Below are positions 1 through 53,548 of a DNA stretch of 64,000 bases, piece after piece. Numbering within the stretch: position 1 is the stretch's first letter; every line of letters starts with the position of its first letter. Location: the NCBI GenBank assembly GCA_964357605.1, contig CAYHLX010000001.1, positions 5,159 through 69,158 on the forward strand, read 5' to 3'. Source of the DNA: an uncultured Candidatus Saccharibacteria bacterium. Its GTDB lineage: Bacteria; Patescibacteriota; Minisyncoccia; Phycocordibacterales; PALSA-1337. The notes under the pieces are model-generated. The model made no database searches, was not told the DNA's origin, and saw only the letters and a program-made list of their open reading frames with translations. The translations under genes and the position numbers were made by a program.

Positions 1-849
1 CTCATCGAACTGCTGGTGGTTATCTCTATCATCGGACTGCTTTCATCAGTCGTCATAGCTTCGGTCACAGCCGCCCGCAAGCAAGGTATGATCGCCGCTG
101 GTCAGAAGTTTGATGCTCACACCCACGCCGCTTTCTATGATGACCTGGTCTTGAGTTGGGATTTTGATAGAGATACTGCTGGTAGTGGCATAGTGCAGGA
201 TTTGAGCGGGAATGGGAATAATTTATCGCTCACAGGAGCAACACTTGATGGCCCACCAACACCAAATCCGTTCAAGACAGGGAAGGTGATCTCGATCGGA
301 CCTTCAAAAACTGCAAATTTACCTGCGCCGATGAAAAAGCCTCCAGCCGGAAAATTCTCAGTGTCTTTTTGGTTGTATCCTGTTTTGGCAGCTGGCGAAA
401 CTGCTGAAGCAACTGAGTACCTCTCGTATTTCCCATTATCGAGCACAAAAGGAAATACATGGAAGTTTTCTTATGCTGTTGGTGCGGCAGGTTTTAATTT
501 TAAATATATTCCGTTATTACCTACTAATCAAAGAACAGTATCAATTGGCCAGCTAGCTTTTAATACATGGCACCATATTGTGGCAGTATGTAATACAACA
601 AATAATAAAATCGGTGTATATGTAAATGGTAAATCTGTGGGTACACCGACCGGGGTTACAGATTGTGGTTTTAATAATACAGATTTAACTGTAGGTTTAC
701 GATTGGTAAGTGTTGGTAAGCCTTATTATCTCGATAACGTACGTATATATGGAGAATCTCTGCCCCTCTCATTTATTCAGGAGCAGTATCTAGCCGGTAA
801 GCCCAAATTTGAAGCTTTGGCAAAGAACATGAAAGATCAAAAAAATTAA
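1..849 (+). CDS. Type IV pilin-like (prepilin N-terminal helix) protein fused to a LamG/concanavalin A-like domain; 5' end cut by window edge
   Basis: The reading frame is open from position 1 and encodes ...[22 protein letters not shown], the pilin/pseudopilin N-terminal hydrophobic helix. The C-terminal 'LDNVRIYGESL' matches the Laminin_G_3-type motif seen throughout this island. The ORF track lists 16..849. Confidence 0.7.
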   Translation, partial: LIELLVVISIIGLLSSVVIASVTAARKQGMIAAGQKFDAHTHAAFYDDLVLSWDFDRDTAGSGIVQDLSGNGNNLSLTGATLDGPPTPNPFKTGKVISIGPSKTANLPAPMKKPPAGKFSVSFWLYPVLAAGETAEATEYLSYFPLSSTKGNTWKFSYAVGAAGFNFKYIPLLPTNQRTVSIGQLAFNTWHHIVAVCNTTNNKIGVYVNGKSVGTPTGVTDCGFNNTDLTVGLRLVSVGKPYYLDNVRIYGESLPLSFIQEQYLAGKPKFEALAKNMKDQKN

Positions 850-8133: not shown

Positions 8134-8757
8134 ATGAATTATATAGATTTTCAACAAAAGTTTAAGGAGTACCCGCTTATTATGGTTTCCGATATCAAGA
8201 CAGCATTTGCTGATTATGATTCTCGGCGATTGTATGAGTGGCAGAAGGCCGGCTATATCCGCAAGGTGGCTAGGAATTTTTGGTTATTTACAGATCAGCA
8301 GGTGAGTGAAAGTCAGACGTGTTTTATTGCCAACAAGCTTCGTGAGCCATCCTATCTAAGTTTGGAATATGCTCTTGGTACATATGGACTCATTCCAGAA
8401 CAGGTTTTCGTCAAGACATGTATAACAACGAGGGGTCGTGCGACATATGAGACACCTGTCGGGAACTTTAGCTATCGTTCCATGAAAGAGGAACTTTTTT
8501 TCGGCTATCTGCTCCATGGAGAGGGGGCATATGCATATAGGATGGCTTCACCAGAAAAGGCATTGCTGGATTTTCTTTACATGCGTTCAGATATACAGGA
8601 TGAAGGCCACATCGCCGAGCTACGCATTGCCACGGATGTGTATCGTGACAAGATAGATGATGCTCGACTGGATTCATATCTCAAAATATTCAACTCGCCG
8701 ACACTAGAGAATAAGGTGCGTCTTGTTCGTGAATATATACTAGACAACCATGATTAA
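8134..8757 (+). CDS. Putative AbiEi-like antitoxin (type IV toxin-antitoxin system partner of AbiEii)
   Basis: 207-aa protein immediately upstream of, and overlapping by 8 nt, an AbiEii-family nucleotidyltransferase gene. The call rests mainly on this conserved two-gene arrangement plus size. No strong motif was recognised by eye. Confidence 0.5.
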   Translation: MNYIDFQQKFKEYPLIMVSDIKTAFADYDSRRLYEWQKAGYIRKVARNFWLFTDQQVSESQTCFIANKLREPSYLSLEYALGTYGLIPEQVFVKTCITTRGRATYETPVGNFSYRSMKEELFFGYLLHGEGAYAYRMASPEKALLDFLYMRSDIQDEGHIAELRIATDVYRDKIDDARLDSYLKIFNSPTLENKVRLVREYILDNHD

Positions 8758-9524
8758 TCTTACCGAATTACAAAAGCTCTATCCGTACCCGGCAGGGTTT
8801 GACCGTAGTGCACTACGAGAATATTTTCAATACAAGATTATGGATATTCTTTTTAGACAAGGAATTGGAAACAAGCTTTGTTTTCTAGGGGGTACAGCAA
8901 TAAAGTTCTGCTATGGTGGCAGACGGTATTCAGAGGATCTTGATTTTGACAATCGTGGTATTAGTCCTGAAGAATTTGAGGCTTTGGTGGAAACCGTTGG
9001 ACAGGAACTTGGTCGTGAAGGATATCGCGTCGATGTTAGGAATTCTTTCAAGAATGCATTTCGTTCACGAGTGGGCATCGAGGGTGTATATCATGATAAT
9101 GGTTTGAGCCCACTTCCCAATGAAAAGCTAATGATCCAGATCGATATGGCACCGCAGGATTTTGCTTTTGAGCCACAGACATATATGCTACAAAAGTACG
9201 AGGTACTCCGTACGATTGCCGTAGTTCCAGTCCAGACTATTTTATCCCAAAAGGTTGCCGCAGTTATTTATTGGACGCAAGAGAGCTAAGGGTCGTGATT
9301 TCTACGACATCGTCTATCTCCGTGGCTTTACGGAATTTGATTTCTCCTATCTCAAGGATAAGCTTGGTATTGTCGATGTAGTCGAACTCAAAAAAAAACT
9401 TCTCGAAGTCACTGCTGGATTTGATTTTGATGCATTGGCTACCGATGTTATGCCATTTCTCGTTAATCGCGAGGAGGTTGAATATGTGCGCCAGTTTAGA
9501 ACATATATTGAACAGAAATTGTGA
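8750..9524 (+). pseudogene. AbiEii/AbiGii-family nucleotidyltransferase toxin, interrupted by a +1 frameshift around 9255-9290
   Basis: The N-terminal ORF 8750..9289 contains 'LCFLGGTAIKFCYGGRRYSEDLDFD', the AbiEii nucleotidyltransferase signature GGTAL...R.S.DLDF. The conserved C-terminal part 'GRKRAKGRDFYDIVYL...' continues in the +1 frame (ORF 9255..9524, which starts at TTG). The two ORFs overlap by 35 nt. Confidence 0.6.
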
Positions 9525-12074: not shown

Positions 12075-12120
12075 AACTAATGTTGATAAGTTACAGATGG
12101 AATAGTGTATAATAACACCC

Positions 12121-15100
12121 ATGGCCCACCCAAAGACACTTCACAGCATCATCGCACTCATAGCCTGTGCAGGTATCATATTAGCAATTATATTTAGCAC
12201 TAACTCATCACCTGACTCTGTCTCTCTCACCCTCTCACCAGAGAGTAGATCAACTCCAGTCGGAGAAACATTCACTATAGACATAGTCCTCAATACCGCC
12301 AAACAAACAGTATACGGAGTAGACATCAATCGACTACGCTTTGATCCTCGTATTCTAGAGGTAGTTGATATAGATACAGCTACACCAGGAACACAAATAA
12401 CAGCTGGCTCCCTCATGGACGCTACAGTCTTCAACTCTGCTGACAATACTCTCGGTACTATACAGTTCTCTCAAGTCATGACTCCAGGTACCAGTGGAAC
12501 TAACTCATTTACTGGCTCTGGTACTCTCGCTACCGTCACCTTCAAGGTAGTAGCTGAAGGTAAATCAGACATATTCATTGACTTTACCCCTGGCTCAAGT
12601 ACAGCTTCAAATGTCGCTGGACAATCAGGCAATCTCCTATCAGTAGTCAATGGTGGATCATACAAGGGTACACGATCACTTCTCTCAACTATCACTTCTC
12701 AATCTCAAATGGCTGCTGTGGCTGACTTTAACTCTAGTCTCGTTGCTCACTATACTTTTGATGGTAATACCAATGACGGAGCTGGTTCTAACAATGGGAC
12801 TGCAAGTGGTGGACCGACGTATACTACAGGCAAAATTGGACAAGGGCTCAGTCTTGACGGTAGCGATGACAAGATAACTTTTACCGCATTCAATGTACCT
12901 TCAAGCTTTACCATATCAACATGGGTCAACCCTGGGTCAAGTCAATCAAGAGATTGGTCGCAGATTCTAGGGGAAGTTAATACGGGCAGTGGGTTACATT
13001 ATAAAAGAGGGGCAAATAAAATTTCCTATTATTTTTCTGGAGGTGATCATTTGACTAACGGATCTCTAAATGCGGGTCAGTGGCACCATGTTGCTTTGGT
13101 TCAAAACTCTGGTAATTATACGTTTTATATAAATGGTTCTGCTGATGCGAGTGGTACAGGAGGTGTGAGTTTCAATCCTTACATCATAGGTCACAATCAC
13201 TGGGGCGAAACATTTGCCGGTTCACTGGATGACATGCGCATCTACAATCGCGCGCTTGACTCGAGTGAAGTGAGTCAACTCTACGCTCTCGGCAGTGGAG
13301 GTGGTACACCCGCGCCAACACCGGATCCTACGCCTACTCCGATACCAGATCCGACACCAACGCCCAGTCCGACAACCTGTTCTTCCTTTACTTACTCCAG
13401 TTGGGGTACGTGCACAAATAGTACCCAAAGTCGTACCGTGACTTCTTCTTCACCTACTGGTTGTACTGGCGGATCACCGATAACTACTCAGTCTTGTGTG
13501 GTTACAACACCTACTCCGACACCACCTGTAGTAACACCAACACCTTCGCCAATTCCTGGAAACACGACATGTCAGGCAATCAATGGTCATAAGTGCTGGT
13601 ATGTAAATTCTTCAGCGACAGGGTTAAATAATGGTACATCTTGGCAAGATGCATGGAGAAGCTTTGCAGATGTTCAGTTAAAAAATCCCTACCGTGCGTG
13701 CGGCGCGCCTACAGGATGCCTCAATTCTGGGGATACACTCTATATTTCGGGCGGCCCTAGCGGATCCAGCAGAACTTATTCAGGTATTTCTTATACATCC
13801 CCTCAGGGAGTAGGATTTGTTTTTGATGTTGGCCATGAGGAAACTGCAAGGTATGCTACAACTCGTGCAGATGGGATTAAAATAAGGCCAGGACAAGATG
13901 CCGGGCACAATGGCAAAGTGATAATTGATGCCGGAGGGCAGGTAGGAATTGGAGCAAATAATTCTCAATATGTCACAATTGATGGGGAATATAATGGTCA
14001 GAGAAATATCGTTATCAGAAATTCATCTGCCGGAATTACCGTCGTTTCAAGTAATGATGCAATAATTCGCTACGTTGAGATTGATAACGTCTCTTCTATA
14101 GCCATATCGGCAGGACAAACACAAAGAGGAGGTGAAATAGCATACAATTATATCCATCAAGTTCGTGGCGAAGCGGCGATCAACTGCAATGGCACAAACA
14201 ATGAACAAGGAAGTCCCAATCATGGCTATGATAAGATGTTGATTCATCACAATGAAATTCAGCTCAATCGCTGGGATCCCAGTCTGGAACCTTCCAGGAA
14301 TGCTGCAGCTGATGGAATTGGTCCTGATGGAATACAGGGTTGCTATGGCCTGAGCTTCTATAACAATTACATTTATCACAAGCCGGGAATGCTCGCGCCA
14401 CGTTCACAGCATCCGGACATGATCCAATCCGGTGGGGCATACTTGAAAGTATATAATAACGTTTTTGAGAATATGACAGATTCTGCAGTGGATTTTGACT
14501 CACCTTTTGTTGGAAAGGTTAGAATATTCAACAACATATTTAAGTCAACACTCTATACAGGTATACCAAGCGGCATTCGCATGTATTCTTCTGGCACATG
14601 GGGTCCTTTTACAAGCCTAGATGATGTTTATATTCTCAACAATCTTTTTGTTGATACTGGTTATTCTGAACGGGGAGGAAGTCCGATAGGTTTTGGCGCA
14701 GGTTCTGTAACGGCATCAAATATTCACATACTCAACAATATATTCTACAACTCAGGGCATAGTAATTATGGGTCACTCATTAATTCGGCAGCTTCTTCTG
14801 GATTTACTCATTCTGATTTTGATATAGGATACAATCTTGTTGATGCTGGATTGCATGGCACGACTAATATCATTCTTGATGGCACTGCCTTTACACAGCA
14901 TCATCCTCTGAGCGGAAAACCTGCTTGGGTTTCGTATAGTGAAGCTTCACCATCTAATAATTTTAAATTAACGGGATCTGATACATTTGCAATCGATAAG
15001 GGAACAAACTTAACAAACTTGTGCAGTGTGATTGGTCTATCTGAGCTTTGCGCTGACGCAGAAAATAAACCGAGACCTTCTGTCGGAGCATGGGAAATAG

Positions 15101-16401
15101 GAACATACGAATACAACGGCTCTGGCGGAACGCCGACTCCACCTCCAGTAACGCCACCGCCACCGCCACCGCCTTCACCTTTATCCACTTACTACGTTTC
15201 TCCTTCAGGCAATGATTCAAACGCGGGAACATCAGCATCACCATTCCGTACTATCCAAAAAGCCGCTAACATAGTTATTCCTGGAGATACAGTCGTCGTT
15301 AGAAATGGAACATATACTGATACGGATGGAAATAATATCATAGCAACCATCGGTAGGGGCGGTGCGGCTGGAGCACCAGTAACTTTCCGTTCGGAAAATC
15401 CTTTCGGTGCCATATTGAGTGGAAACAATACTGCCGGATTCGGATTTATTTTTGGAAATAATATCAACTATGTCAACATAGAAGGATTTGAAATTAAAGA
15501 TATTGTTGAGGCAGGGATCAACATCAACGAATCAAATTCATATATTACTATTAAGGATAATCGTATTCACCACATTGGTCACATTCAGACACACACACTA
15601 TACGGCATGAGTTGTATTGATGTGGGAAGTAGGGCTCATCATATTACTGTTGCAGGCAATACTATTTATTCCTGCGGAAGGCTGAACCCAAATAATACAA
15701 ACCTTGAAATTCTGGACTCAACCTGTATTACGCCGGTTGGCTATGTCTTTCCTGGAAATGGCATCACATATTCAAAGGAAAACACTTGCTACAACCATGA
15801 TCATGGCATATATGTAAGAGGTGATGATATCAATATTACTAACAATACATTCTACGATATGAAATCTGGTTGGGGAGTGCATGTATATGATGATGCGGCT
15901 CTAAAAGAGCGTATTACTATCACTGGCAACACATTTGCAGATGCCAATCCACAAAGAAACGGCCAGATCATTATCGGTCCACAGACAAGCAATCTGCGTA
16001 TCGAAAGTAATATTTTCTACAATCCATCAGTCTCTGCCATCAGGCTCGGAGACACTTGTGCTGCAGCCGGTCTCACCAGTATCACTATACAGAACAACTC
16101 AACCAACATCGGAGATCTCATCTCAGGAGCCGACGTATCATGCGGGTATACTATCTCCGGCAATCTTCTCAATCAAAATTTCCAATTTGCAAATGAAGCA
16201 GGAAGAGATTATCGTCTCATATCCGGCCAACCTATCGTCAACAAACCAGGCGACTTCAACAGAGACGGAGCAGTCAATGCCCTAGACTTCTCACTCTTGT
16301 CAGGTGCCTGGAATACCAATACCTCTACATATGATCTAAACAGTGATGGTATTGTGAATACTCTAGACTATGTGATCATGGTGCAAAATTGGACGGGGTA
16401 G
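12121..16401 (+). CDS. Giant surface protein: N-terminal cohesin-like domain, LamG domain, PT linkers, Cys-containing module, two right-handed beta-helix regions, C-terminal dockerin
   Basis: Residues about 30-180 ('VSLTLSPESRSTPVGETFTIDIVLNTAKQTVYGVDINRLRFDP...GTIQFSQV...GSGTLATVTFKVVAEGKSDIFIDF') have cohesin-like beta-sandwich features. They are homologous to the N-terminal domains of 21969..23327, 23367..25040 and 25101..25808. LamG 'LDDMRIYNRALDSSEVSQLY'. 'SPFRTIQKAANIVIPGDTVVVRNGTY' is a typical beta-helix cap. The dockerin tail is identical to that of 9600..11990. Confidence 0.7.
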   Translation: MAHPKTLHSIIALIACAGIILAIIFSTNSSPDSVSLTLSPESRSTPVGETFTIDIVLNTAKQTVYGVDINRLRFDPRILEVVDIDTATPGTQITAGSLMDATVFNSADNTLGTIQFSQVMTPGTSGTNSFTGSGTLATVTFKVVAEGKSDIFIDFTPGSSTASNVAGQSGNLLSVVNGGSYKGTRSLLSTITSQSQMAAVADFNSSLVAHYTFDGNTNDGAGSNNGTASGGPTYTTGKIGQGLSLDGSDDKITFTAFNVPSSFTISTWVNPGSSQSRDWSQILGEVNTGSGLHYKRGANKISYYFSGGDHLTNGSLNAGQWHHVALVQNSGNYTFYINGSADASGTGGVSFNPYIIGHNHWGETFAGSLDDMRIYNRALDSSEVSQLYALGSGGGTPAPTPDPTPTPIPDPTPTPSPTTCSSFTYSSWGTCTNSTQSRTVTSSSPTGCTGGSPITTQSCVVTTPTPTPPVVTPTPSPIPGNTTCQAINGHKCWYVNSSATGLNNGTSWQDAWRSFADVQLKNPYRACGAPTGCLNSGDTLYISGGPSGSSRTYSGISYTSPQGVGFVFDVGHEETARYATTRADGIKIRPGQDAGHNGKVIIDAGGQVGIGANNSQYVTIDGEYNGQRNIVIRNSSAGITVVSSNDAIIRYVEIDNVSSIAISAGQTQRGGEIAYNYIHQVRGEAAINCNGTNNEQGSPNHGYDKMLIHHNEIQLNRWDPSLEPSRNAAADGIGPDGIQGCYGLSFYNNYIYHKPGMLAPRSQHPDMIQSGGAYLKVYNNVFENMTDSAVDFDSPFVGKVRIFNNIFKSTLYTGIPSGIRMYSSGTWGPFTSLDDVYILNNLFVDTGYSERGGSPIGFGAGSVTASNIHILNNIFYNSGHSNYGSLINSAASSGFTHSDFDIGYNLVDAGLHGTTNIILDGTAFTQHHPLSGKPAWVSYSEASPSNNFKLTGSDTFAIDKGTNLTNLCSVIGLSELCADAENKPRPSVGAWEIGTYEYNGSGGTPTPPPVTPPPPPPPSPLSTYYVSPSGNDSNAGTSASPFRTIQKAANIVIPGDTVVVRNGTYTDTDGNNIIATIGRGGAAGAPVTFRSENPFGAILSGNNTAGFGFIFGNNINYVNIEGFEIKDIVEAGININESNSYITIKDNRIHHIGHIQTHTLYGMSCIDVGSRAHHITVAGNTIYSCGRLNPNNTNLEILDSTCITPVGYVFPGNGITYSKENTCYNHDHGIYVRGDDINITNNTFYDMKSGWGVHVYDDAALKERITITGNTFADANPQRNGQIIIGPQTSNLRIESNIFYNPSVSAIRLGDTCAAAGLTSITIQNNSTNIGDLISGADVSCGYTISGNLLNQNFQFANEAGRDYRLISGQPIVNKPGDFNRDGAVNALDFSLLSGAWNTNTSTYDLNSDGIVNTLDYVIMVQNWTG
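16377..16401 (+). repeat. Direct repeat copy 1 (the dockerin-gene 3' end catggtgcaaaattggacggggtag) flanking the ATPase gene
   Basis: 24/25 identical to 17743..17767. The two copies bracket the AAA ATPase gene 16532..17725. Confidence 0.7.
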
Positions 16402-16531
16402 GGGTGAAAGTAACTCAAGATGGTAAAAATAGTATTGTAAATTATGTTCAAGAATAAGGGTATTTTAGGTCTTTTTCCTAGATATAAAATTGCACTTTAC
16501 ATCTAGTCAAGATTAATGTAAACTACCATTT

Positions 16532-17725
16532 ATGAATAAAGTATTTTATCCGAGAAAAATATATCCTGAATTAAAGGAACATTTGGAGAGTGATGATGTC
16601 ATGATTATTACTGGCATGCGTCGTACCGGAAAGACTACATTGGTAGAACATATTCTTTCGGAAATAAATTCAAGTAACAAGATATTTTTAGATTTGGAGA
16701 AAATAAGTAATCAGGAAATATTTGGTGATAAAAATTATGATAATGTCATTATTAGTTTAGAACAACAGGGTTTATCTCAGAAGGAAAGAATGTATGTGGC
16801 CTTGGATGAAATCCAGACTATGCCGAACATACCGAGTGTAATCAAATATCTTCATGATCACTATAATATAAAGTTCATTCTTACCGGATCTAGTTCTTAC
16901 TATCTAAAAAATTTATTTACTGAGTCTCTCTCTGGAAGAAAGAAACTTTTTGAACTACATCCTCTGGATTTTGGAGAATTTTTGACTTTCAAAAATGTCT
17001 CATATAAACGACTTGATAGTATAGATTCAGTAGAAACTTTTAATATGCATGAGTATGAAAGACTGAAAGCTTACTATGAAGAATATATTGAGTATGGTGG
17101 TTTTCCAAAAGTTGTACTTGCTCCGTCTGTCAAAGATAAAAAAGATATTCTTGATGATATAATCAGCTCGTACATCAATGTTGATATAAAAAGTATCGCT
17201 GATTTCAAAGATGCTTCAGCAGTTCTCAATATAGCAAAAATGCTGGCGGCCAGGATAGGGGGTAAGCTCGATTATTCCAAATTATCTAGACTGACAGGGC
17301 TCACTCGACCAACGATCGTCAATTATATGTATCTATTTGAACGGACGTATCTCATTTCTCTCATTCCTGTTCATACCAAAAATCCTGATAGAGAAATAGT
17401 TAAGGCTCAAAAAATATATTTTTCGGATAGCGGGCTTGCTGGAATACTTGCTGGTATAGACAGTGGTTCAAAATTTGAAAATACTATTTTCAATCAGCTT
17501 AGACATAAGAGAGAATTAAAGTATTATTCCCTAAAGACTGGCAATGAAATTGATTTTATTGTTGACAAAAAACTAGCATTAGAAGTGAAGGAAACCCCTA
17601 CAGAATTTGACATAAAAAATCTTGCATATTTAGCGGACAAAGCAGGGGTTGTATCTTATAAATTAGTAGGTAGACATCACACTCCCAATTTTTCTAATTA
17701 TATATGGGGTGGAAGTATTTTATGA
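16532..17725 (+). CDS. AAA-family ATPase (AAA_14 + DUF4143-type architecture)
   Basis: Walker A 'ITGMRRTGKTTL'. Overall length and layout are typical of the widespread AAA+DUF4143 'ATP-binding protein' family. It is flanked by direct repeats of the dockerin 3' end. Confidence 0.8.
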   Translation: MNKVFYPRKIYPELKEHLESDDVMIITGMRRTGKTTLVEHILSEINSSNKIFLDLEKISNQEIFGDKNYDNVIISLEQQGLSQKERMYVALDEIQTMPNIPSVIKYLHDHYNIKFILTGSSSYYLKNLFTESLSGRKKLFELHPLDFGEFLTFKNVSYKRLDSIDSVETFNMHEYERLKAYYEEYIEYGGFPKVVLAPSVKDKKDILDDIISSYINVDIKSIADFKDASAVLNIAKMLAARIGGKLDYSKLSRLTGLTRPTIVNYMYLFERTYLISLIPVHTKNPDREIVKAQKIYFSDSGLAGILAGIDSGSKFENTIFNQLRHKRELKYYSLKTGNEIDFIVDKKLALEVKETPTEFDIKNLAYLADKAGVVSYKLVGRHHTPNFSNYIWGGSIL

Positions 17726-17742
17726 CACCAAGACTAGCGTCT

Positions 17743-17767
17743 CATGGTGCAGAATTGGACGGGGTAG
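17743..17767 (+). repeat. Direct repeat copy 2 (catggtgcagaattggacggggtag), an orphan dockerin 3' end with no gene attached
   Basis: Read directly. It encodes ...MVQNWTG* but is not preceded by a dockerin ORF, because it lies 18 nt after the ATPase stop. Confidence 0.7.
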
Positions 17768-17837
17768 AATGGCATCTACACCCTAGGTTATTAACAGAGT
17801 AAACTCCCTGAATTGCATTTTGTGATATCATTAACCC

Positions 17838-20420
17838 ATGAATCTCACCAAAAAACATCTCATAGTAGCGGGGCTTACTATTATTATCATCCTTACCATC
17901 CTCTTTAATCTTGGAGATATTACATCCAAGGAGATTGCACAGTATATCCCACCAAGTAGCTCACAATCCCAGACTGCCGCCGTTTCTGACTTCATCGTCC
18001 ACAATACATTTGATACAGGGACTGTGACCGGTGCTATCGGCCAGGCCACAACATTTGATGGGATTGATGATTATGTGACACTGAGTTCGAGTGGTGTGCC
18101 AGTGGGCAAACAGCCGGTGACTGTGTCGGCTTGGGTCAAGCTTGCTGGTTCTCCTTCTGCTGATAGCAGGATTGTTTTTCGCGGAGAGAGGTATTCGTCA
18201 TCAGATTTTATATTTTTTGATCTAGCTCTCGAAGGGGCAGGACACAATGTGCCGACATTTACCATGATGGGTACCGGAGGAGGAGGTTCACACTACAAGG
18301 CAACTTCAGGAACAGGACTTTCAGCCGGACAGTGGTACCACCTGGTTGGCGTTTCCGATGGAGGAGGCGCAGTGACTGTATATGTAAACAATACTCCTAC
18401 TACCGGAAGCCATATTGATTTCGATGGTCACGATGGAACACCATACGCACCGTCCGTAGGCGCACGGTTGCAAGGCTCCGCGGATTCTTTCTTTGCCGGT
18501 TCGATCGACGACGTTCGTATTTACAACCGCGCACTTGACTCGAGTGAAGTGAGCCAACTCTACGCGCTCGGCAGTGGAGGTGGTACGCCCGCGCCAACGC
18601 CGGATCCTACACCAACCCCGACACCGGATCCAACACCGACACCTTCTGCAGTCAACGGTCAATGTGGTGTAACTGAGAATATTTGTATTCAAGGTACTCT
18701 CAATAATACTGCTGACTCTACTACCAATTATCTTTGGCAATGTACCGGTGCAAATGGTGGCGCAACGGGTTCATGTTCTATTGCAAAACCAGTAAACACC
18801 ATAGTGACCCCACCATCCACTCCAGATCCAGTTACCTTTACAGCACCACCTGTAGTATCCGGTTCGCAAACATACTATATAGACTATGTCTCAGGTAACA
18901 ATGCCAACAACGGCACTTCAAAAAACACCCCATGGAAGGTTCATCCATACATGAAAGGTTTTACCGGAAGCTATTCACACAAGGCTGGAGACAGATTTAT
19001 TTTCAAGGGAGGTGTAACGTGGCCACACTCTGCATTTCAGATGAATATTGCCGCTGGCGGAAGCAGTGACAGTGCGCGTGACTATTATGGTGCTGACAAA
19101 ACTTGGTATGCCGGTTCATCTTGGACCAGACCAGTTTTTGATTTTGAAAACAAAGTCGTAGCACCGGATGCATGGGGTGGAGCAGAGTCAGCAGGGTTGC
19201 TTCTCAGGGATGTTCACTACATCACTCTCGACAATCTGGAGCTGATCCGTTTCCGTCAAAGATTGTTTGAAAAGAATTCCGGCAAGGCTGACCCCGGATT
19301 TGCGGTGGATAATATCACTATACAAGGATCCGCATCCAATATTACACTGCAAAACAGCATTGTGCGTGATTGGACTATACCTACACCCATACCGGCGGGC
19401 TATATAGATGGCGGGGCATCAGGAGGGGTTATCGTTAATGCTTGGTCTGGCGGAGGCACGGGTATAAAAATCCTTAACAATGAATTTCATCAGCAGAATA
19501 CAGGAATCAGATCTGGGGTAGCACTCTATTTGGGTGGAGAGATTGCCTATAACACTATCCACCATGTGTCAGATGCTATCGTCGGTGGTGGTAACGTTCA
19601 TGACAATCTGATCTACAACGTCGAGGATGCCACCTGTCCGGAATTACACGAAGATGTGATCTATATCACATCACCTTCAACGGTTTACAACAACGTTGTC
19701 TATGAAGCTACTGCCGCCGCTCCCGTCTATTACCTTGAACCGAGTCGTTCCGCATCCACTGGAACAACATTGGTGTATAACAATATTTCCTATAATACCG
19801 GGTATGCACCTCTCAGTATAGACATTAGTCAGCCTGAAGGTGTCAATCACGTGATAAAAGTTTACAACAACAGTTTTCATTCCGAAAGTTCTTCGGTGGT
19901 ACGCGTGGTGGATCGTGTCGGTTTACCATTGGGTGTATTGGATATGAAGAATAATCACTTTATTTTCAATGGACAATTCCTCAATATTCCTGCTGGCACA
20001 GTCCTAGACTTTAAGAATACAAATAATATTTTCCACACAGAGTCCGAAGCTGCCCAGTTCGGGGCAACAAGGGCCAACCTATTCAAATTTACTTCGTCTA
20101 ATGCACCAATGATAAACGCCGGTGTAAGTTTGTCGACATTTTTTGCGACTGACAGGCTCGGTGTTGCTCGTCCACAAGGCGGAGCTTGGGATATTGGCGC
20201 CTACGAATATGGTGGAAGCGGAGGATCTGTATGGTCACCACCGCCACCAGCACCAGTTTACAAGCAAGGTGATTTCAACAGGGATGGGCTAGTCAATTCT
20301 CTAGATCTTTCTCTGCTCACATCTGTTTGGAATCAAAATAGTGCCTCATACGATCTGAATTCTGATGGTATCGTAAATAGCTTGGATTATGTGGTTATGA
20401 TTCAGAACTGGACATCGTAA
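17838..20420 (+). CDS. Secreted LamG-like - PT linker - Cys module - beta-helix - dockerin protein (divergent paralog)
   Basis: Same N-terminal leader ('IIILTILFNLGDITSKEIAQYIPPSSSQSQTAAVSDF'). 'IDDVRIYNRALDSSEVSQLYALGSGGGTPAPTPDPTPTPTPDPTPTPS' is near-identical to 12121..16401. The beta-helix core is homologous to 9600..11990 ('SGSQTYYIDYVSGNNANNGTSK.TPWKVHP(F/Y)MKGFTGSYSHKAGDRFIFKGGVTWP'). The dockerin is a variant: 'DFNRDGLVNSLDLSLL...DLNSDGIVNSLDYVVMIQNWTS'. Confidence 0.7.
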   Translation: MNLTKKHLIVAGLTIIIILTILFNLGDITSKEIAQYIPPSSSQSQTAAVSDFIVHNTFDTGTVTGAIGQATTFDGIDDYVTLSSSGVPVGKQPVTVSAWVKLAGSPSADSRIVFRGERYSSSDFIFFDLALEGAGHNVPTFTMMGTGGGGSHYKATSGTGLSAGQWYHLVGVSDGGGAVTVYVNNTPTTGSHIDFDGHDGTPYAPSVGARLQGSADSFFAGSIDDVRIYNRALDSSEVSQLYALGSGGGTPAPTPDPTPTPTPDPTPTPSAVNGQCGVTENICIQGTLNNTADSTTNYLWQCTGANGGATGSCSIAKPVNTIVTPPSTPDPVTFTAPPVVSGSQTYYIDYVSGNNANNGTSKNTPWKVHPYMKGFTGSYSHKAGDRFIFKGGVTWPHSAFQMNIAAGGSSDSARDYYGADKTWYAGSSWTRPVFDFENKVVAPDAWGGAESAGLLLRDVHYITLDNLELIRFRQRLFEKNSGKADPGFAVDNITIQGSASNITLQNSIVRDWTIPTPIPAGYIDGGASGGVIVNAWSGGGTGIKILNNEFHQQNTGIRSGVALYLGGEIAYNTIHHVSDAIVGGGNVHDNLIYNVEDATCPELHEDVIYITSPSTVYNNVVYEATAAAPVYYLEPSRSASTGTTLVYNNISYNTGYAPLSIDISQPEGVNHVIKVYNNSFHSESSSVVRVVDRVGLPLGVLDMKNNHFIFNGQFLNIPAGTVLDFKNTNNIFHTESEAAQFGATRANLFKFTSSNAPMINAGVSLSTFFATDRLGVARPQGGAWDIGAYEYGGSGGSVWSPPPPAPVYKQGDFNRDGLVNSLDLSLLTSVWNQNSASYDLNSDGIVNSLDYVVMIQNWTS

Positions 20421-20432
20421 TACTGACTGTTA

Positions 20433-20981: not shown

Positions 20982-21004
20982 GAGATTCGTAGTACAATAT
21001 TCAG

Positions 21005-21907
21005 ATGATTGTTATGAGACATAAAAACTATGCTCAAGCTTTTACCCTAATAGAGATATTGGTGGTTATATCTATCTTGGGATTATTAGCATCTATAGTT
21101 TTTGCTGTGATCAGACAGGCTCGTGAAAGAGGAGTGATAGCCGGGGGAATTATTTTTGCAACTCATACACAACATACCGTCGGTGATCAAGGGGCGATAT
21201 ATTTTGATTTTGGTGCACCATCTGACTTGGATGCAGATCCCGACACAGAAGAAGTGGCAGATACGTCCGGCAACAGTCTTCACGGTACTCTGATGGGTAA
21301 TTCTCCGAGTAATCCGATGGTAAGTCCTACATCGTATTCTCCAGAGGCAGGTAGTTCTCTCAGTCTTAATACCCAATCTGGGATACCGACTCAGTATGTA
21401 AGCGTCGGGTCAAGTCCTGCTCTTGAAAGTGAGAAGCTGATTCTTTCGGCGTGGGTAAAGTCTCCGCCAGTACCTCATCTTTCACAGTTTATAAAAACAG
21501 TTGTTTCATACCATCCAGTGTATATTCTTTTTTTGGACTTGCGTCGCCATAGGGTGAGCGTTTGCACTACTCCTCATAGATTATATAGCGGTCCTCCCGG
21601 ATCATGTCTGTCGTCAGAAATAATATCTATTGATCCAGTTGATGATAAATGGCACAACATAATAGTATCAATTGATTCAGGGGTGCCAAATGGCTCGAAG
21701 ATATATTATGACGGACGTTTGATCGCACAGGGGCTATTTAATATGGCGGCAGTTCCTTCTGGTTGTGAACCCATATTGAGTATTGGTAAGGTAGAGGCGG
21801 CATGTGGTATTCCGTCTTTTGCATATCCAGATAATACTTACCCTAATATGTTTACAGGTCAACTAGATGACGTTCGAGTATACACCACTTCCTTGCCTGT
21901 AAACTGA
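21005..21907 (+). CDS. Type IV pilin-like protein with C-terminal LamG-type domain
   Basis: 'AFTLIEILVVISILGLLASIVFAVIRQARERG' is a prepilin-type N-terminal helix (Ala instead of Gly at -1). C-terminal 'LDDVRVYTTSLPVN'. Confidence 0.6.
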   Translation: MIVMRHKNYAQAFTLIEILVVISILGLLASIVFAVIRQARERGVIAGGIIFATHTQHTVGDQGAIYFDFGAPSDLDADPDTEEVADTSGNSLHGTLMGNSPSNPMVSPTSYSPEAGSSLSLNTQSGIPTQYVSVGSSPALESEKLILSAWVKSPPVPHLSQFIKTVVSYHPVYILFLDLRRHRVSVCTTPHRLYSGPPGSCLSSEIISIDPVDDKWHNIIVSIDSGVPNGSKIYYDGRLIAQGLFNMAAVPSGCEPILSIGKVEAACGIPSFAYPDNTYPNMFTGQLDDVRVYTTSLPVN

Positions 21908-21968
21908 TCCTAATGTTATGGGAGGTATGTGTGTGCCGAAGTGAAAGGAATAGAGTATAATACTATTT

Positions 21969-23327: not shown

Positions 23328-23366
23328 TACGTTTTTGTTTATTAGAAAAGAAGGTATAATGATCTC

Positions 23367-25040: not shown

Positions 25041-25100
25041 AAGGATGTTAAAATTATTCAACATAATAGCAATAAATTTAAAAGCGCACATTATCAATTT

Positions 25101-31298: not shown

Positions 31299-31385
31299 AT
31301 GTCAAAATCCGTCTACTTTCTTCTGGTTGTTGTGATCATTATTAATATCGTTGTCACTTATGTGATGATTCGTTATTTTGTCTAA
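31299..31385 (+). CDS. Tiny 28-aa hydrophobic peptide, paralogous to the C-terminal TM of 31045..31281
   Basis: Manual translation gives MSKSVYFLLVVVIIINIVVTYVMIRYFV*, compared with ...IILIIVVIINIIVTFFVIKYFI* for the upstream gene. It is not in the ORF track because it is under 60 aa. Confidence 0.3.
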   Translation: MSKSVYFLLVVVIIINIVVTYVMIRYFV

Positions 31386-31395: not shown

Positions 31396-32283
31396 ATGAA
31401 AAAAAACTTAAAAACAAGAGGCTTTACTTTGATTGAGCTTCTAGTAGTGATTTCAATCATCGGCATGATGTCCTCTGTGGTACTCGCAGCCGTTAATAAC
31501 GCTCGAAAAAGTGGCAGTGTTGCCGCTGGTCTCAGTTTTAGTGGGTATAATTATAGAACAATGGGAGATTTAGCCTTTGGTTTTTGGGATTTCAATGAAC
31601 CAAATGGAACCACTGCCTATGATTTGTCAGAAAATAGATTCAATGCAACCTTCGCTGTTCCTGGGCCAACTAGAGATACAGCAGAAAAACCATCAAAGAG
31701 AGGTGCTTCGATGAATTTTACTGGAACAAACAATAACTTGGTAGCCACTATTAGTTCACAAAAGAATCTCTGTAATAATATAAATACTGTGGATGGTTGC
31801 AATTCTTCTACTGTGAGTGCTTGGGTCTGGCCTACTAGTGTCAGTAATCAAGGAACTATAATTGATACGGGTACCCCTGCAATTAGAAGTGTAAGGATGT
31901 TATTTTCTGCTACTGCTGGATCTGTGGTTTGTGGATATGGTAACGTCTTAGTCACTTTTTCTGAAGCCCTTGTCAAGGTAGGAGAATGGCAACATCTCAC
32001 TTGTTCGTATACTGGAAATGGCACGACAGGTAAGATGACATTCTATCTAAATGGAAAAATGATTATTTCAAAAACATTAAACGTATCATTAGCTGATCTT
32101 TCTAGGTTAATACCGTCTGTGACAATAGGAAATTATCCTGGTGGTGGTGCGGCAAACCTCCCCTTCATCTTTAATGGTAAAATGGATGATGTAGCTATAT
32201 ATGGTAAAGTTCTCACTGCTCTAGAGATTAGACACATCTATGCTAGAGGTTTAGCTGAACACTCTATTGCTAGGGCTGAATAA
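31396..32283 (+). CDS. Type IV pilin-like protein with LamG-type C-terminal domain
   Basis: '[35 protein letters not shown]' is a canonical prepilin (G-1/F+1, E+5). C-terminal 'GKMDDVAIYGKVLTALEIRHIY'. ATG 31396 is preferred over the track's TTG at 31378. Confidence 0.65.
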   Translation: MKKNLKTRGFTLIELLVVISIIGMMSSVVLAAVNNARKSGSVAAGLSFSGYNYRTMGDLAFGFWDFNEPNGTTAYDLSENRFNATFAVPGPTRDTAEKPSKRGASMNFTGTNNNLVATISSQKNLCNNINTVDGCNSSTVSAWVWPTSVSNQGTIIDTGTPAIRSVRMLFSATAGSVVCGYGNVLVTFSEALVKVGEWQHLTCSYTGNGTTGKMTFYLNGKMIISKTLNVSLADLSRLIPSVTIGNYPGGGAANLPFIFNGKMDDVAIYGKVLTALEIRHIYARGLAEHSIARAE

Positions 32284-34387: not shown

Positions 34388-34987
34388 TTAGGGATTTTGA
34401 AAACAACCCTTTGGTTTTGTTACATCATATGACAATCCTACACCATAGGTATAACCAGATGCTTCACTGGATCCAGAACTACCCACACAAAAATAACCAT
34501 TTTTACCAGGAAGATAAGCACCGATGGATAAATGATTTTTACCACCACCAGGACTATTGAGGGGTGCACCTATAACTAGCTGGTTTGAAATTGTGTTGTT
34601 ACCGATAGTGCTGATGATTTTTTCGCATATCCTAGAAGCTTCTGGGTTTGCGACCCTAATTGCCGAGGTGAATACTTCAGAACATGAAGTACCATCATTA
34701 TCTATGTAACAATAAAAACTAAAGTTATCACCAGAACCAGAATAGGAGCATCCATTTAAATATGGTGGTGGAGGTCTCATTTGCCAATTTTCATAATTTC
34801 CTTTTTCTGCATAGGTGCCCTGAAAGAGTAATCTCAATTGCAACATACTGGTTTTGATCGCGGCATCTTTTGATTTTAATCTTGCGGTATTTACTGAGGC
34901 GAGAACAACACTAGACATCATGCCAATGATTGAGATGACGACGAGAAGTTCTATAAGAGTAAAACCTTTTTTGTCTGACCACTTCAT
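34388..34987 (-). CDS. Type IV pilin-like protein
   Basis: '[46 protein letters not shown]'. Confidence 0.7.
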
Positions 34988-50974: not shown

Positions 50975-51736
50975 GTGATAACGATGAACACATCGATTAC
51001 ATCGAACCAGACAGAACAAGTAGCAACCTTCACTGCAGATGCCGCCCGCTCCGGCGCCCGAAACGTCATGGAACGAGTCGCGAAGATTGAAGGTGTCTCC
51101 CGAGACAGCCTTCAGGCAAGAGTCATCGAAAAAGGCAACGAGCTGACCAAGTTCGTAAGTCGGGAAGTTGAAGCTCTTCTGGAGAGCAAGCTTCTCGCAA
51201 TGCTGATGATCATGCTCGACCACCTCAAGGTGATCATGGTAGGATCAGTGAAAATTGCGACTATGCCCCGCATGAAAGTTGTTGATTGCCTCAAGCAAGA
51301 CGGCGTGATCATCGGCTGGCGTGATGACGATCTGGATGGCTGGCTCTCGGAATATGTTTCAGCGATGCCTACAGGGACAATCAACTGCATGGAACTTACG
51401 AAGCCCGAAGGCACAACTTTCCGCCAGATGGCTGAAGCGGCCCTAGGCATGGCCGGGGCTAACGACGCAGAGCTGAAAAAAGCTCTTCGTGAACGTGGAA
51501 TGACCTTCCACCTTGAACAAGTTCGGGATCTCATCACGAGAACCGAAGCTAAAGAGGAGACAGGCTTCCATAAGGACGGCAAAGCCAACCTCCTTTTTAT
51601 CGAGGATGAGAATGGGGAAGTCTTTGGGCTCCGCGTCCGTCGGGATGACTGCTGGGGGGTGCGCGTCGACTCCTTTGGCAACGACCGCGAGTGGCTTCAG
51701 GGCCGTCGTTTCTTCTCTCGCAACATGCCTGCGTAA
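50975..51736 (+). CDS. DGR target (variable) protein; C-terminal about 36 aa encoded by the VR
   Basis: The VR occupies the last about 106 nt before the stop. The VR-encoded tail 'VFGLRVRRDDCWGVRVDSFGNDREWLQGRRFFSRN' corresponds to the TR-encoded 'IFGLNVNRNDYWKVNVNSFDNDNEWNQGNRFFSRN' (AAC/Asn-rich, as is usual for DGR templates). GC content is visibly higher than in flanking genes. No signal peptide is evident. An alternative start at ATG 50984 has a GGTG Shine-Dalgarno. Confidence 0.75.
   Translation: MITMNTSITSNQTEQVATFTADAARSGARNVMERVAKIEGVSRDSLQARVIEKGNELTKFVSREVEALLESKLLAMLMIMLDHLKVIMVGSVKIATMPRMKVVDCLKQDGVIIGWRDDDLDGWLSEYVSAMPTGTINCMELTKPEGTTFRQMAEAALGMAGANDAELKKALRERGMTFHLEQVRDLITRTEAKEETGFHKDGKANLLFIEDENGEVFGLRVRRDDCWGVRVDSFGNDREWLQGRRFFSRNMPA
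51619..51724 (+). repeat. DGR variable region (VR)
   Basis: Manual alignment to 52014..52119 gives 85/106 identical. Every one of the 21 differences is VR G/C/T opposite a TR A (g/a, cg/aa, cg/aa, g/a, g/a, g/a, gg/aa, cg/aa, g/a, g/a, cg/aa, ct/aa, cg/aa, c/a). Confidence 0.85.
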
Positions 51737-52555: not shown

Positions 52556-53548
52556 ATGAAGACATATGTTGATATTATTTCTACAAACAATTTACTCAAA
52601 GTTTGGAAAGAATTTTTACGTGGAAAGAAAAAACGTAAGGATGTGAATGTATTTTCACTGCATCTTATGGACAATATCTTTAGGCTTCATAAAGATATGA
52701 AAAATAAAGAATATAAACATGATGAATATGAAGCATTTGGTATTTCTGATCCAAAGCCTCGCAAGATTCACAAGGCTACAGTCAGAGATCGCCTAGTTCA
52801 CCATGTCTTGTATGAAGCCTTATCCCCACAGTTCAATCAAAGATTTATTTCTGATTCATATTCTTGTCGTCTCAATAAAGGGATGCACCGCGCCCTCGCA
52901 AGATTTAAAATATATTCAGGAAAGGTGAGTAAAAACAATACCAAAACATGCTGGATTTTGAAATGTGATATTAGAAAATTCTTTGCTTCTATTGATCAAT
53001 CTATTCTCACATCCATTCTTGAAAAATATATTTCTGATAAAGACATTCTTTGGCTGCTGTCTAATGTCATACATAGTTTCCATAGTACTGCTCCAGGAAA
53101 AGGACTACCTCTGGGTAATCTGACCTCACAATTGTTGGTCAATATTTACATGAACGAATTTGATCAATTTGTAAAACATAAACTCAAAATAAAATGCTAT
53201 ATTCGTTATGCCGATGATTTTGTTGTTTTTGATTCTTGCAAAAGTAATTTGGAAAATCTTATAATTATTTTCAGGGAATTTCTAAAAGAAAATCTAAAGC
53301 TTGACCTGCATCCCAATAAAGTTTTCATAAAAACTCTAGCATCAGGTGTTGATTTTCTCGGCTGGGTTCATTTTCCTAACCACCGAGTGTTGCGTACAGT
53401 TACAAAAAAGAGAATGATGAAGAAAATAAAATCAGGTTTTCGGCCAGAAGTCATAGCTTCGTATATTGGTATGCTTGAACATGGAGATGCTTATACCTTG
53501 CGAAAGAATATAGAAAATCTTCCAGAAATCGAGATAAAGCCGAAATAA
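52556..53548 (+). CDS. DGR-type reverse transcriptase
   Basis: 'GLPLGNLTSQLLVNIYMNEFD' is the DGR-specific motif 4 (I/LGxxxSQ). 'IRYADDFVVF' is YxDD motif 5. 'ISDPKPRKIHKATVRDRLVHHVLYEAL' covers motifs 1-2. The compact 330-aa size and the absence of maturase/endonuclease or intron RNA features fit a DGR RT. Confidence 0.85.
   Translation: MKTYVDIISTNNLLKVWKEFLRGKKKRKDVNVFSLHLMDNIFRLHKDMKNKEYKHDEYEAFGISDPKPRKIHKATVRDRLVHHVLYEALSPQFNQRFISDSYSCRLNKGMHRALARFKIYSGKVSKNNTKTCWILKCDIRKFFASIDQSILTSILEKYISDKDILWLLSNVIHSFHSTAPGKGLPLGNLTSQLLVNIYMNEFDQFVKHKLKIKCYIRYADDFVVFDSCKSNLENLIIIFREFLKENLKLDLHPNKVFIKTLASGVDFLGWVHFPNHRVLRTVTKKRMMKKIKSGFRPEVIASYIGMLEHGDAYTLRKNIENLPEIEIKPK

What the first reader, a model, noticed from the sequence alone, without database searches (positions are those of the whole stretch)
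1..849. Pilin/pseudopilin N-terminal helices fused to LamG lectin-like domains (four genes in the window)
ORFs 1..849, 21005..21907 and 31396..32283 combine a type IV prepilin N-terminus ([15 protein letters not shown]-type) with a C-terminal LamG/concanavalin-like domain ending in the same DDVR(I/V)Y motif as the dockerin proteins. ORF 34388..34987 (-) is a plain pilin. Lectin-tipped minor pilins would give carbohydrate-binding pili. That makes functional sense for a host-attached CPR cell and ties the pilus to the LamG/dockerin surface system.
Basis: partly seen in the sequence, partly recalled or inferred. Interest (0 to 1): 0.5.

Follow-up and report, generated by a model that had tools for sequence, protein, structure and literature searches.

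The report
LamG-headed type IV pilins in Patescibacteria
Three genes in this groundwater Patescibacteria (CPR) contig encode type IV pilin subunits whose head is a LamG/concanavalin-like binding domain, a fusion already catalogued as common in this group, so they are most likely ordinary but fast-changing adhesin subunits of the cell's pili.

Summary
Three ORFs combine a class III (prepilin) signal peptide and a long N-terminal helix with a Laminin_G_3 domain: 1..849 (cut by the window edge; 301 aa in full), 21005..21907 and 31396..32283. ORF 34388..34987(-) is a plain pilin. Pfam and NCBIfam cut-offs are passed, and two AlphaFold models show a ~46-48-residue helix running straight into a ConA-like beta-sandwich.

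The architecture is not new. At least 120 relatives share it (638 hits in all), named ones from Patescibacteria MAGs. Raynaud et al. 2021 list IPR012902+PF13385 among the 15 commonest "modular pilin" architectures. Lectin-type minor pilins are characterised in S. sanguinis (PilC) and reported in Saccharibacteria TM7x (PilX1).

Still untested: carbohydrate binding, tip location, and a pilus machinery in this genome (none in the window). The "DDVRIY" motif is the generic last strand of PF13385, not a specific link to the dockerin proteins.

Additions from this work:
- Two of the three have Ala, not Gly, at -1.
- No separate pilin head domain is predicted.
- The cluster-embedded pilin is a mosaic hypervariable gene (60% aa identity) inside a cohesin/dockerin cluster that is 93-98% identical in another MAG.

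Verdict: new member of a known kind, modest interest.

The parts
1..849 (+). pil1: the 3' 282 codons plus stop of a 301-aa LamG pilin. The true start is 56 nt upstream of the window. The leader is MVKISRIISHKNKFSTA (Ala at -1); LamG lies at about aa 131-273 of the full protein. The stop is 4 nt before the 2xLamG gene at 853.
   Evidence: Laminin_G_3, 49.9 bits; completed from L005; TIGR02532, 22.8 bits
21005..21907 (+). pil2: a 300-aa LamG pilin inside the cohesin/dockerin cluster. Leader MIVMRHKNYAQA (Ala -1), Phe+1, Glu+5. The model has a helix at aa 15-62 followed by a beta-sandwich.
   Evidence: N_methyl 29.1, Laminin_G_3 29.2 bits; AF2 pLDDT 81, pTM 0.79; Foldseek: AbnA domain 4, BoNT HCN; conserved position in L007
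21431..21860 (+). Hypervariable mosaic segment of pil2 (about aa 151-285, half of the LamG sandwich). A second diverged patch is aa 26-62 (21080-21190).
   Evidence: nt identity to L007 is 0.39-0.65 here, against 0.90-1.00 in the flanks; dS about 2.7 here, against 0.07-0.22 in the gene ends and flanking genes; the third allele, P0122, is a recombinant of the other two.
31396..32283 (+). pil3: a 295-aa LamG pilin in a housekeeping neighbourhood. Leader MKKNLKTRG (31396-31422); alpha1 aa 12-57; beta-sandwich aa 60-269 (31573-32202); C-terminal helix aa 275-294.
   Evidence: Laminin_G_3 66.8, N_methyl 30.5 bits; AF2 pLDDT 83, pTM 0.77; Foldseek; family; positional orthologues; NCBI MEK7105745.1, 'LamG-like jellyroll fold domain-containing protein'
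34388..34987 (-). pil4: a plain 199-aa type IV pilin. Leader MKWSDKKG. Mature residues 1-22 are identical to those of pil3. It is a candidate partner or major subunit.
   Evidence: N_methyl 33.8 bits; 78% identity to pil3 over the first 37 aligned residues; N-terminal similarity to Geobacter/PilA pilins; NCBI 'type II secretion system protein'

Best explanation
These are modular type IV pilins. Each precursor has a short basic leader that a prepilin peptidase (encoded elsewhere) cleaves after Gly or Ala at -1. This exposes N-methyl-Phe1 and Glu5 on a hydrophobic alpha1 helix of about 46-48 residues. That helix is the part that packs into the core of a type IV filament built by a PilB/PilC/PilM-type machine.

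Instead of the usual small alpha-beta pilin head, the helix carries a ~230-residue LamG/ConA-like beta-sandwich, which the filament displays. The bulk of this head argues for low-abundance incorporation, most likely at or near the tip, into filaments made mainly of plain pilins such as 34388..34987(-). There it would act as the ligand-binding (adhesin) module for attachment to partner cells or particles. A glycan ligand is plausible but unproven.

The binding head evolves very quickly. In the cluster-embedded copy it is exchanged by recombination between conserved gene ends, as expected of a specificity determinant.

Shown here: the signal-peptide features, the fold, family distribution, synteny and mosaic divergence.
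Inferred: processing, incorporation into a pilus, position in the filament, and the ligand.
For: - Class III signal peptide: Pfam and NCBIfam cut-offs passed. Phe+1 and Glu+5 are invariant in 126 of 126 relatives, and Gly-1 occurs in 90%.
- Structure: AF2 models show alpha1 at 12-57 and 15-62, followed directly by a beta-sandwich. Foldseek probability is 1.00 to ConA-like domains, including the arabinan-complexed AbnA domain 4.
- Co-assembly hint: the alpha1-N of pil3 is identical over 22 residues to that of the neighbouring plain pilin.
- Family: 638 hits; all of the best 120 have PF07963+PF13385 and are 253-311 aa long; the named ones come from Patescibacteria, Paceibacterota and Taylorbacteria MAGs. 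A related genome has two LamG pilins beside three plain pilins.
- Fast-evolving head: pil3 orthologues in a conserved position show 28-30% identity in LamG, against 52-80% for neighbouring genes. pil2 is 60% identical inside a cluster that is 93-98% identical, with saturated dS in the head segment and a recombinant third allele.
- Literature precedents: PF13385 modular pilins are among the 15 commonest architectures, and several of the figured representatives are CPR proteins (PMC8179133). S. sanguinis PilC is a lectin-module pilin modelled in a tip complex (PMC9934059). TM7x PilX1 is a jelly-roll, lectin-like minor pilin, and TM7x host binding is inhibited by sugars (PMC11623550).
- Machinery in the habitat: T4P assembly genes are present in ~88% of Patescibacteria MAGs enriched in the 0.1-um fraction at the same site (PMC8672522).
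Against: - No pilus assembly ATPase, platform protein, PilM/N/O or prepilin peptidase lies in the 64-kb window.
- None lies within about 10 kb of relatives in seven other genomes.
- No canonical pilin head domain is predicted, so how a 25-kDa sandwich packs in a filament is unknown.
- Two of the three have Ala at -1, which from my own knowledge of PilD substrates is a poorer cleavage site.
- PF13385 and ConA-like domains are not all lectins. The closest folds (BoNT HCN, the trans-sialidase C-terminal domain) have no established sugar site.
- No conserved ligand-site residues were identified. The invariant W, W, G and D look like core positions.
Confidence: 0.62

Rival explanations
1. Pilin-anchored surface display without filament incorporation. 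The class III signal peptide serves only for export and membrane anchoring, so the LamG domains sit on the cell surface on a short helical stalk. This would resemble the class III signal-peptide sugar-binding proteins of the Sulfolobus 'bindosome' (own knowledge), and they would work alongside the cell-wall-anchored cohesin/dockerin LamG proteins.
For: - The genes are orphans, never next to assembly genes.
- No pilin head domain is predicted.
- Two copies are embedded, probably co-transcribed, in a surface-protein cluster with PG-binding cohesin proteins.
Against: - Glu+5 and Phe+1 are strictly conserved, and Gly predominates at +14 (83 of 126). These features matter for filament assembly rather than for simple anchoring.
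- The alpha1-N of pil3 is identical to that of a plain pilin.
- Relatives are interleaved with plain pilins.
Confidence: 0.15
2. Major subunits of a separate, thick filament. Each LamG pilin homopolymerises, giving a pilus sheathed in LamG domains.
For: - The family is abundant and multi-copy.
- alpha1 has full length.
- pil3 lies in a conserved position, with a weak promoter-like site upstream.
Against: - The head is about twice the size of known major pilin heads.
- The extreme divergence of the head (28-30% identity between positional orthologues) fits a ligand-binding module better than a subunit whose lateral contacts must be preserved.
- In the characterised cases of bulky or modular pilins (PilC, PilB, PilX1/PilX2) they are described as minor pilins.
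Confidence: 0.08
3. Components of a competence (Com) or T2SS-like pseudopilus rather than an adhesive pilus. The LamG domain would capture DNA or a substrate.
For: - The N-termini give weak hits to the GspG/GspH and ComGC/D/E models.
- NCBI names the plain pilin 'type II secretion system protein'.
- A ComEC-type Competence domain lies near one relative.
Against: - All these hits are far below the curated cut-offs and cover only the shared N-terminal helix.
- Patescibacteria lack an outer membrane for a T2SS (own knowledge).
- A ConA-like fold has no known DNA-binding role.
Confidence: 0.08
4. Not pilins at all: generic N-terminal signal anchors on secreted LamG proteins.
For: Ala at -1 in two proteins, and no peptidase gene in the window.
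Against: - The motif G/A-FTLIE-L/I-LVVISI passes two independent curated models.
- It is invariant across the family.
- The other LamG proteins in the same cluster use ordinary Sec signal peptides.
Confidence: 0.03

Closest known systems
Modular type IV pilins of architecture IPR012902 (N_methyl) + PF13385 (Laminin_G_3), catalogued by Raynaud et al. 2021 (PMC8179133)
   Same: Same two-domain architecture and size class. [quoted passage not shown] The window proteins carry exactly these Pfam domains.
   Different: That survey is a database catalogue only, with no structure, genetics or population analysis for this architecture. Whether the paper's own examples lack a separate pilin head was not checked here.
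Streptococcus sanguinis PilC (modular minor pilin with a ConA-like lectin module; Shahin et al. 2023, PMC9934059)
   Same: A class III signal peptide and a short pilin moiety carry a ConA-like superfamily module. PilC is experimentally a lectin and is modelled in a tip complex of minor pilins.
   Different: No detectable sequence similarity, and PilC is not among the top 50 Foldseek matches. PilC is larger (52.8 kDa), has an extra Ig-like module and a galectin-like sandwich, and is encoded in the pil locus. The genes here are orphans, and the sandwich follows alpha1 directly.
Saccharibacteria TM7x PilX1 (minor pilin with a beta-jelly-roll, L-type-lectin-like C-terminal domain; PMC11623550)
   Same: A CPR organism with a pilin carrying a jelly-roll accessory domain, proposed as a tip adhesin. 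TM7x host binding is inhibited by sugars.
   Different: PilX1 keeps a 'lollipop' pilin globular domain plus an added C-terminal domain that NCBI CD-Search does not recognise, and it lies in a T4P locus.
Tip minor pilins with grafted domains (ETEC CofB, T2SS GspK), as discussed in PMC8179133
   Same: The concept of a bulky effector module carried by a pilin helix and presented at the filament tip.
   Different: The grafted folds are unrelated, and those proteins retain a pilin head domain. The comparison rests on the literature only.
Haloarchaeal Tat-fimbria subunit TafC (NCBIfam NF052521)
   Same: A weak hit from the second half of the pil3 LamG domain (35.6 bits, aa 192-284) to the C-terminal part of the TafC model, from a different kind of filament.
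   Different: The score is far below the 410-bit cut-off. TafC is secreted by the Tat pathway and assembles by strand donation. This is not membership.

Membership tests
Type IV pilin / class III signal peptide (PF07963, TIGR02532) | Short, basic leader peptide ending in Gly at -1 | tested here: met
   pil3 (MKKNLKTRG) and pil4 (MKWSDKKG) have Gly. pil1 and pil2 have Ala at -1, a minority variant found in 12 of 126 family members.
Type IV pilin / class III signal peptide (PF07963, TIGR02532) | Phe (or another hydrophobic residue) at +1, Glu at +5, and about 20 hydrophobic residues | tested here: met
   FTLIE(L/I)LVVISI(I/L)G... in all four genes. F+1 and E+5 occur in 126 of 126 relatives. Curated cut-offs are passed.
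Type IV pilin / class III signal peptide (PF07963, TIGR02532) | Extended N-terminal alpha1 helix of about 50 residues | tested here: met
   AF2 gives a helix at 12-57 in pil3 and 15-62 in pil2.
Type IV pilin / class III signal peptide (PF07963, TIGR02532) | Canonical globular head (antiparallel beta-sheet packed on alpha1-C, with a D-region) | tested here: not met
   In both models the LamG sandwich starts 2-3 residues after alpha1, and no separate head domain is predicted. Coordinates could not be inspected, so packing of alpha1-C on the sandwich is unknown.
Type IV pilin / class III signal peptide (PF07963, TIGR02532) | Processing by a prepilin peptidase and assembly by a PilB/PilC/PilM-type machine in the same genome | not testable with these tools
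   None of these genes is in the window. Attempts to extend the contig failed. The only support is indirect: ~88% of similar MAGs at this site carry such genes (PMC8672522).
Laminin_G_3 / ConA-like lectin-glucanase superfamily (PF13385) | Profile match above the gathering score | tested here: met
   49.9, 29.2 and 66.8 bits against a cut-off of 27.6. pil2 is marginal.
Laminin_G_3 / ConA-like lectin-glucanase superfamily (PF13385) | Two-sheet jelly-roll beta-sandwich fold | tested here: met
   AF2 plus Foldseek for pil3 and pil2: probability 1.00; matches are BoNT HCN, the trans-sialidase lectin-like domain, PTX3 and AbnA domain 4 (TMt 0.68). pil1 was not modelled.
Laminin_G_3 / ConA-like lectin-glucanase superfamily (PF13385) | Carbohydrate (lectin) binding | not testable with these tools
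   No ligand-site motif was identified. The invariant residues W143, W198, G220 and D264 appear structural.
Modular pilin sensu Raynaud/Pelicic | [quoted passage not shown] | tested here: met
   the definition and PF13385 examples are in PMC8179133.
T2SS / Com pseudopilins (GspG/H, ComGC/D/E equivalogs) | Score above the NCBIfam equivalog cut-off | tested here: not met
   The best scores are 16-35 bits against cut-offs of 49-89, and only the N-terminal helix is matched.
Cohesin-dockerin system component | Presence of a dockerin or cohesin module in the pilin | tested here: not met
   No Dockerin_1 or Cohesin hit in any pilin at E<=0.01. The association is by gene neighbourhood only.

The most novel reading that the evidence does not exclude
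The LamG pilins are exchangeable partner-specificity cassettes. The copy embedded in the cohesin/dockerin/LamG cluster is a recombination hot spot. Its conserved ends (leader plus alpha1-N, and the last beta-strand) let whole head segments be swapped between Patescibacteria lineages. The surrounding cell-wall-anchored cohesin-dockerin 'adhesome' is itself passed almost unchanged between species. Together these would form a pilus-plus-adhesome host-recognition system whose specificity is reset by allele replacement.
Probability: 0.15. Interest if true: 0.6.

Novelty: new member of a known kind. Interest (0 to 1): 0.3.

Why it matters
Patescibacteria depend on attachment to other cells, and type IV pili are their best-supported attachment organelle. 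LamG-headed pilins are a large, uncharacterised, fast-evolving pilin class in the Paceibacteria-type lineages, which have no cultured model. If they set partner specificity, they are obvious candidates for predicting or manipulating host range.

The mosaic allele pattern found here gives a concrete handle: a 400-nt hypervariable head segment between conserved ends that could be tracked in population metagenomes. As a discovery, though, it extends published catalogues and the PilC and PilX1 precedents rather than opening a new category.

Tried and rejected
- **Family size by profile search.** A profile search of 1.84 billion representatives with the family alignment was swamped by giant multi-LamG proteins (757,714 hits at E<=1e-3). 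It gave no count for the pilin architecture.
- **afdb50 fold search.** Unavailable.
- **Genome-contig scan.** It keyed on the FTLIELLVV motif and mostly returned unrelated PVC-group prepilin-like genes. Only four loci were full-length relatives.
- **Extending the contig past the window to look for pilB/C/D.** Look-ups of TrmD, RNase R and SMC gave only 2.6-7 kb fragments or no record at all.
- **Silent pilS-like donor cassettes for the pil2 variable segment.** None were found in the window or in L007.
- **A specific tie through the DDVRIY motif.** Rejected, because the motif is generic to PF13385.
- **Recent domain shuffling between pilin and dockerin LamG domains.** Rejected, at only 23-38% identity.
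- **Membership in the TafC, GspG/H or ComG families.** Rejected on score.
- **Promoter and terminator scans.** Counts were within or near shuffle expectation. There is only a weak promoter-like site at 31351-31379 upstream of pil3.

Full report
**1. The observation**

- ORF 21005..21907 begins MIVMRHKNYAQA|FTLIEILVVISILG.
- ORF 31396..32283 begins MKKNLKTRG|[14 protein letters not shown].
- ORF 34388..34987(-) begins MKWSDKKG|[14 protein letters not shown].
- ORF 1..849 begins in mid-motif ([12 protein letters not shown]) because the window cuts it.

A six-frame regular-expression scan of all 64 kb finds this motif nowhere else.

Pfam places N_methyl (29-34 bits, cut-off 21.2) on the three complete N-termini. 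It places Laminin_G_3 (49.9, 29.2 and 66.8 bits, cut-off 27.6) on the three long proteins. The fourth has only N_methyl. NCBIfam TIGR02532 is passed by all four.

A sister contig from the same groundwater sample series (L005) has 1 mismatch in 3048 overlapping nt. It completes ORF1 as a 301-aa protein with the leader MVKISRIISHKNKFSTA, starting 56 nt before the window.

So the window holds three LamG fusions and one plain pilin. Two details differ from the finding. The -1 residue is Ala in two of the fusions. The C-terminal motifs are DNVRIY, DDVRVY and DDVAIY.

**2. Source and context**

Proteins identical to pil3 and pil4 are in NCBI as MAG proteins of a "Patescibacteria group bacterium". 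They are named "LamG-like jellyroll fold domain-containing protein" and "type II secretion system protein". Matching contigs come from Hainich well H41, 0.1-um fraction.

Window 853-25808 is a same-strand cluster of LamG(x1-3), LamG+dockerin, cohesin+LamG+beta-helix+dockerin, cohesin+PG-binding, fn3+dockerin and cohesin proteins.
- pil1 ends 4 nt before the first of these genes.
- pil2 lies 23 nt after a 182-aa gene and 61 nt before the cohesin/PG-binding gene.
- pil3 and pil4 lie among housekeeping genes: FBA, 2-hydroxyacid dehydrogenase, L25, an SLT transglycosylase, RF, S2 and EF-Ts.

No T2SSE, T2SSF, PilM/N/O or Peptidase_A24 gene is in the window.

**3. Structure**

AlphaFold2 with family alignments gave confident models: pil3 with pLDDT 83 and pTM 0.77, and pil2 with pLDDT 81 and pTM 0.79. 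Each has one long helix (12-57 and 15-62) followed within 2-3 residues by an all-beta domain. pil3 ends with a C-terminal helix.

Foldseek against the PDB matches ConA-like sandwiches at probability 1.00. These are the botulinum toxin HCN domain, the trypanosomal trans-sialidase lectin-like domain and the PTX3 pentraxin domain. For pil2 the top match is domain 4 of arabinanase AbnA, solved in complex with an arabinan ligand, with TMt 0.68.

No separate pilin head domain is predicted; the sandwich takes its place. I could not inspect coordinates, so the geometry of helix against sandwich remains open.

**4. Family and distribution**

The word-indexed search found 638 relatives at E<=1e-3. All of the best 120 have PF07963+PF13385 and are 253-311 aa long. 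Those with names come from Patescibacteria, Paceibacterota or Taylorbacteria MAGs. Full-length genomic matches were in Kaiserbacteria, Paceibacterota, Parcubacteria and one "Saccharibacteria"-labelled MAG.

Across 126 sequences:

| Feature | Result |
|---|---|
| Phe+1 | 126 of 126 |
| Glu+5 | 126 of 126 |
| -1 residue | Gly 113, Ala 12, Ser 1 |
| Median leader length | 8 aa |

pil2 belongs to a narrow subgroup, with only three close relatives.

**5. Neighbourhoods**

pil3 is a positional orthologue. The order (TGT-PfkB-FBA-...)-80-aa TM ORF-LamG pilin-L25-SLT recurs in two other genomes. In another genome, two LamG pilins and three plain pilins are scattered among the same housekeeping genes.

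In seven related loci, none has an assembly gene within about 10 kb. These pilins are therefore orphans, as extra pilin genes often are.

**6. Evolutionary behaviour (new here)**

Between the window and its positional orthologues, the neighbouring genes are 52-80% identical. pil3 is only 35% identical overall: 58-67% in alpha1 and 28-30% in LamG.

The second case is more striking. MAG GCA_964602725.1 (L007) carries the same cohesin/dockerin cluster at 92-96% nt identity, and 93-98% aa identity for four of its genes. The adjacent L25 and SLT genes are only 58% and 62% identical. pil2, in the middle of the cluster, is 59.7% identical.

Sliding-window identity is 0.90-1.00 in the flanks. It falls to about 0.76 over 21031-21330 and to 0.39-0.65 over 21431-21830. 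Nei-Gojobori estimates are as follows:

| Segment | dS | dN |
|---|---|---|
| pil2 aa 1-25 | 0.065 | 0 |
| pil2 aa 286-300 | 0.088 | 0 |
| Three near-identical flanking genes (o12121, o17838, o20433) | 0.10-0.22 | 0.02-0.04 |
| pil2 aa 26-62 | 0.88 | 0.38 |
| pil2 aa 151-285 | ~2.7 (saturated) | 0.53 |

A third allele (P0122) matches the window in aa 26-62 and L007 in aa 150-285.

Elevated dS shows that diverged segments were imported by recombination between conserved ends. In-situ positive selection alone would not raise dS. No silent donor copies exist in the window or in L007. This analysis rests on three alleles only.

**7. The claimed tie to the dockerin proteins**

The "DDVR(I/V)Y" motif is the generic last strand of PF13385. 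It occurs in nearly every LamG repeat of the window and in 115 of 150 unrelated giant multi-LamG proteins.

The pilin LamG domains are only 23-38% identical to those of the dockerin proteins. The pilins have no dockerin or cohesin module.

What remains is a neighbourhood link: tight spacing, the same strand, and conservation of pil2's position in L007. That is suggestive of co-function but no more.

**8. Comparison with what is known**

- Raynaud et al. 2021 searched InterPro for IPR012902 plus a non-T4P domain. They list PF13385 among the 15 most frequent architectures and predict carbohydrate binding; several of the figured representative proteins are from CPR lineages.
- Shahin et al. 2023 showed that S. 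sanguinis PilC is a modular pilin whose ConA-like module binds sialylated glycans and heparin, and modelled it in a tip complex with PilA and PilB.
- A 2024 study of Saccharibacteria TM7x reports "lectin-like minor pilins", including PilX1 with a jelly-roll domain, and host binding that sugars inhibit.
- The Hainich study found T4P assembly genes in ~88% of Patescibacteria MAGs enriched in the 0.1-um fraction.

**9. Mechanism and verdict**

The most likely mechanism has five steps.
1. Cleavage and N-methylation by a PilD encoded elsewhere.
2. Insertion of the alpha1 helix into a type IV filament.
3. The body of that filament is built mainly of small pilins. pil4 is a candidate, since it shares an identical 22-residue alpha1-N with pil3.
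4. Low-copy, probably tip-proximal, display of a LamG binding head.
5. Rapid turnover of that head by recombination.

Confidence is about 0.6 for "filament-borne binding subunit" and clearly lower for "glycan-specific lectin at the tip". The rivals, in order of weight, are pilin-anchored surface display without polymerisation, a homopolymeric thick filament, a Com/T2SS-like pseudopilus, and a generic signal anchor.

Novelty is "new member of a known kind". The modest additions are the Ala(-1) variants, the absence of a separate head domain, and the mosaic hypervariable allele inside a near-identical, apparently exchanged cohesin-dockerin cluster.

Noticed in passing
window 50975-53548: A diversity-generating retroelement. 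ORF 50975..51736 (253 aa, no Pfam hit) carries a variable repeat at 51621-51724. This is 82% identical to a template repeat at 52016-52119, and every mismatch falls on a template adenine. An RVT_1 reverse transcriptase (52556..53548) follows, and a Bro-N protein is next.
   Followed up: partly
window 12105-25630 vs L007 (GCA_964602725.1, CAZRRZ010000004.1): The cohesin/dockerin/LamG/beta-helix cluster is 92-96% nt identical between two Patescibacteria MAGs, yet their adjacent L25 and SLT genes are only 58-62% aa identical. This suggests recent exchange of the whole surface-protein cluster between species. Chimeric assembly was not excluded.
   Followed up: partly
window 16401-17730: A 1.3-kb insertion absent from the otherwise collinear L007 cluster. 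It carries an AAA_14 + DUF4143 ATPase gene (16532..17725) and coincides with a GC dip to 0.36.
   Followed up: no
window 8134-9289: An AbiEii-family nucleotidyltransferase toxin (8750..9289), overlapping an upstream 207-aa ORF, lies inside the cohesin/dockerin cluster. An AbiEii gene sits at the equivalent place in L007.
   Followed up: no
window 31045-31281: A 78-aa ORF with a C-terminal transmembrane helix lies directly upstream of pil3. It is conserved in the same position in two other genomes, at 33-50% identity. Function unknown.
   Followed up: no
window 39080-40213 (-): PheS carries a fused FDX-ACB anticodon-binding domain (tRNA-synt_2d + FDX-ACB, ~377 aa as called in L001 and L008). 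From my own knowledge, this resembles the single-chain mitochondrial PheRS architecture. A related genome (L006) has the usual separate PheS and PheT.
   Followed up: no
window 18331-18430: A 100-nt patch of low identity (0.63) to L007 inside the LamG domain of the LamG-dockerin gene 17838..20420. This may be a second small mosaic patch in a LamG domain.
   Followed up: no
L005 180-965 (upstream of window position 1): A 261-aa Pro/Thr/Ala-rich low-complexity protein is encoded immediately upstream of pil1.
   Followed up: no
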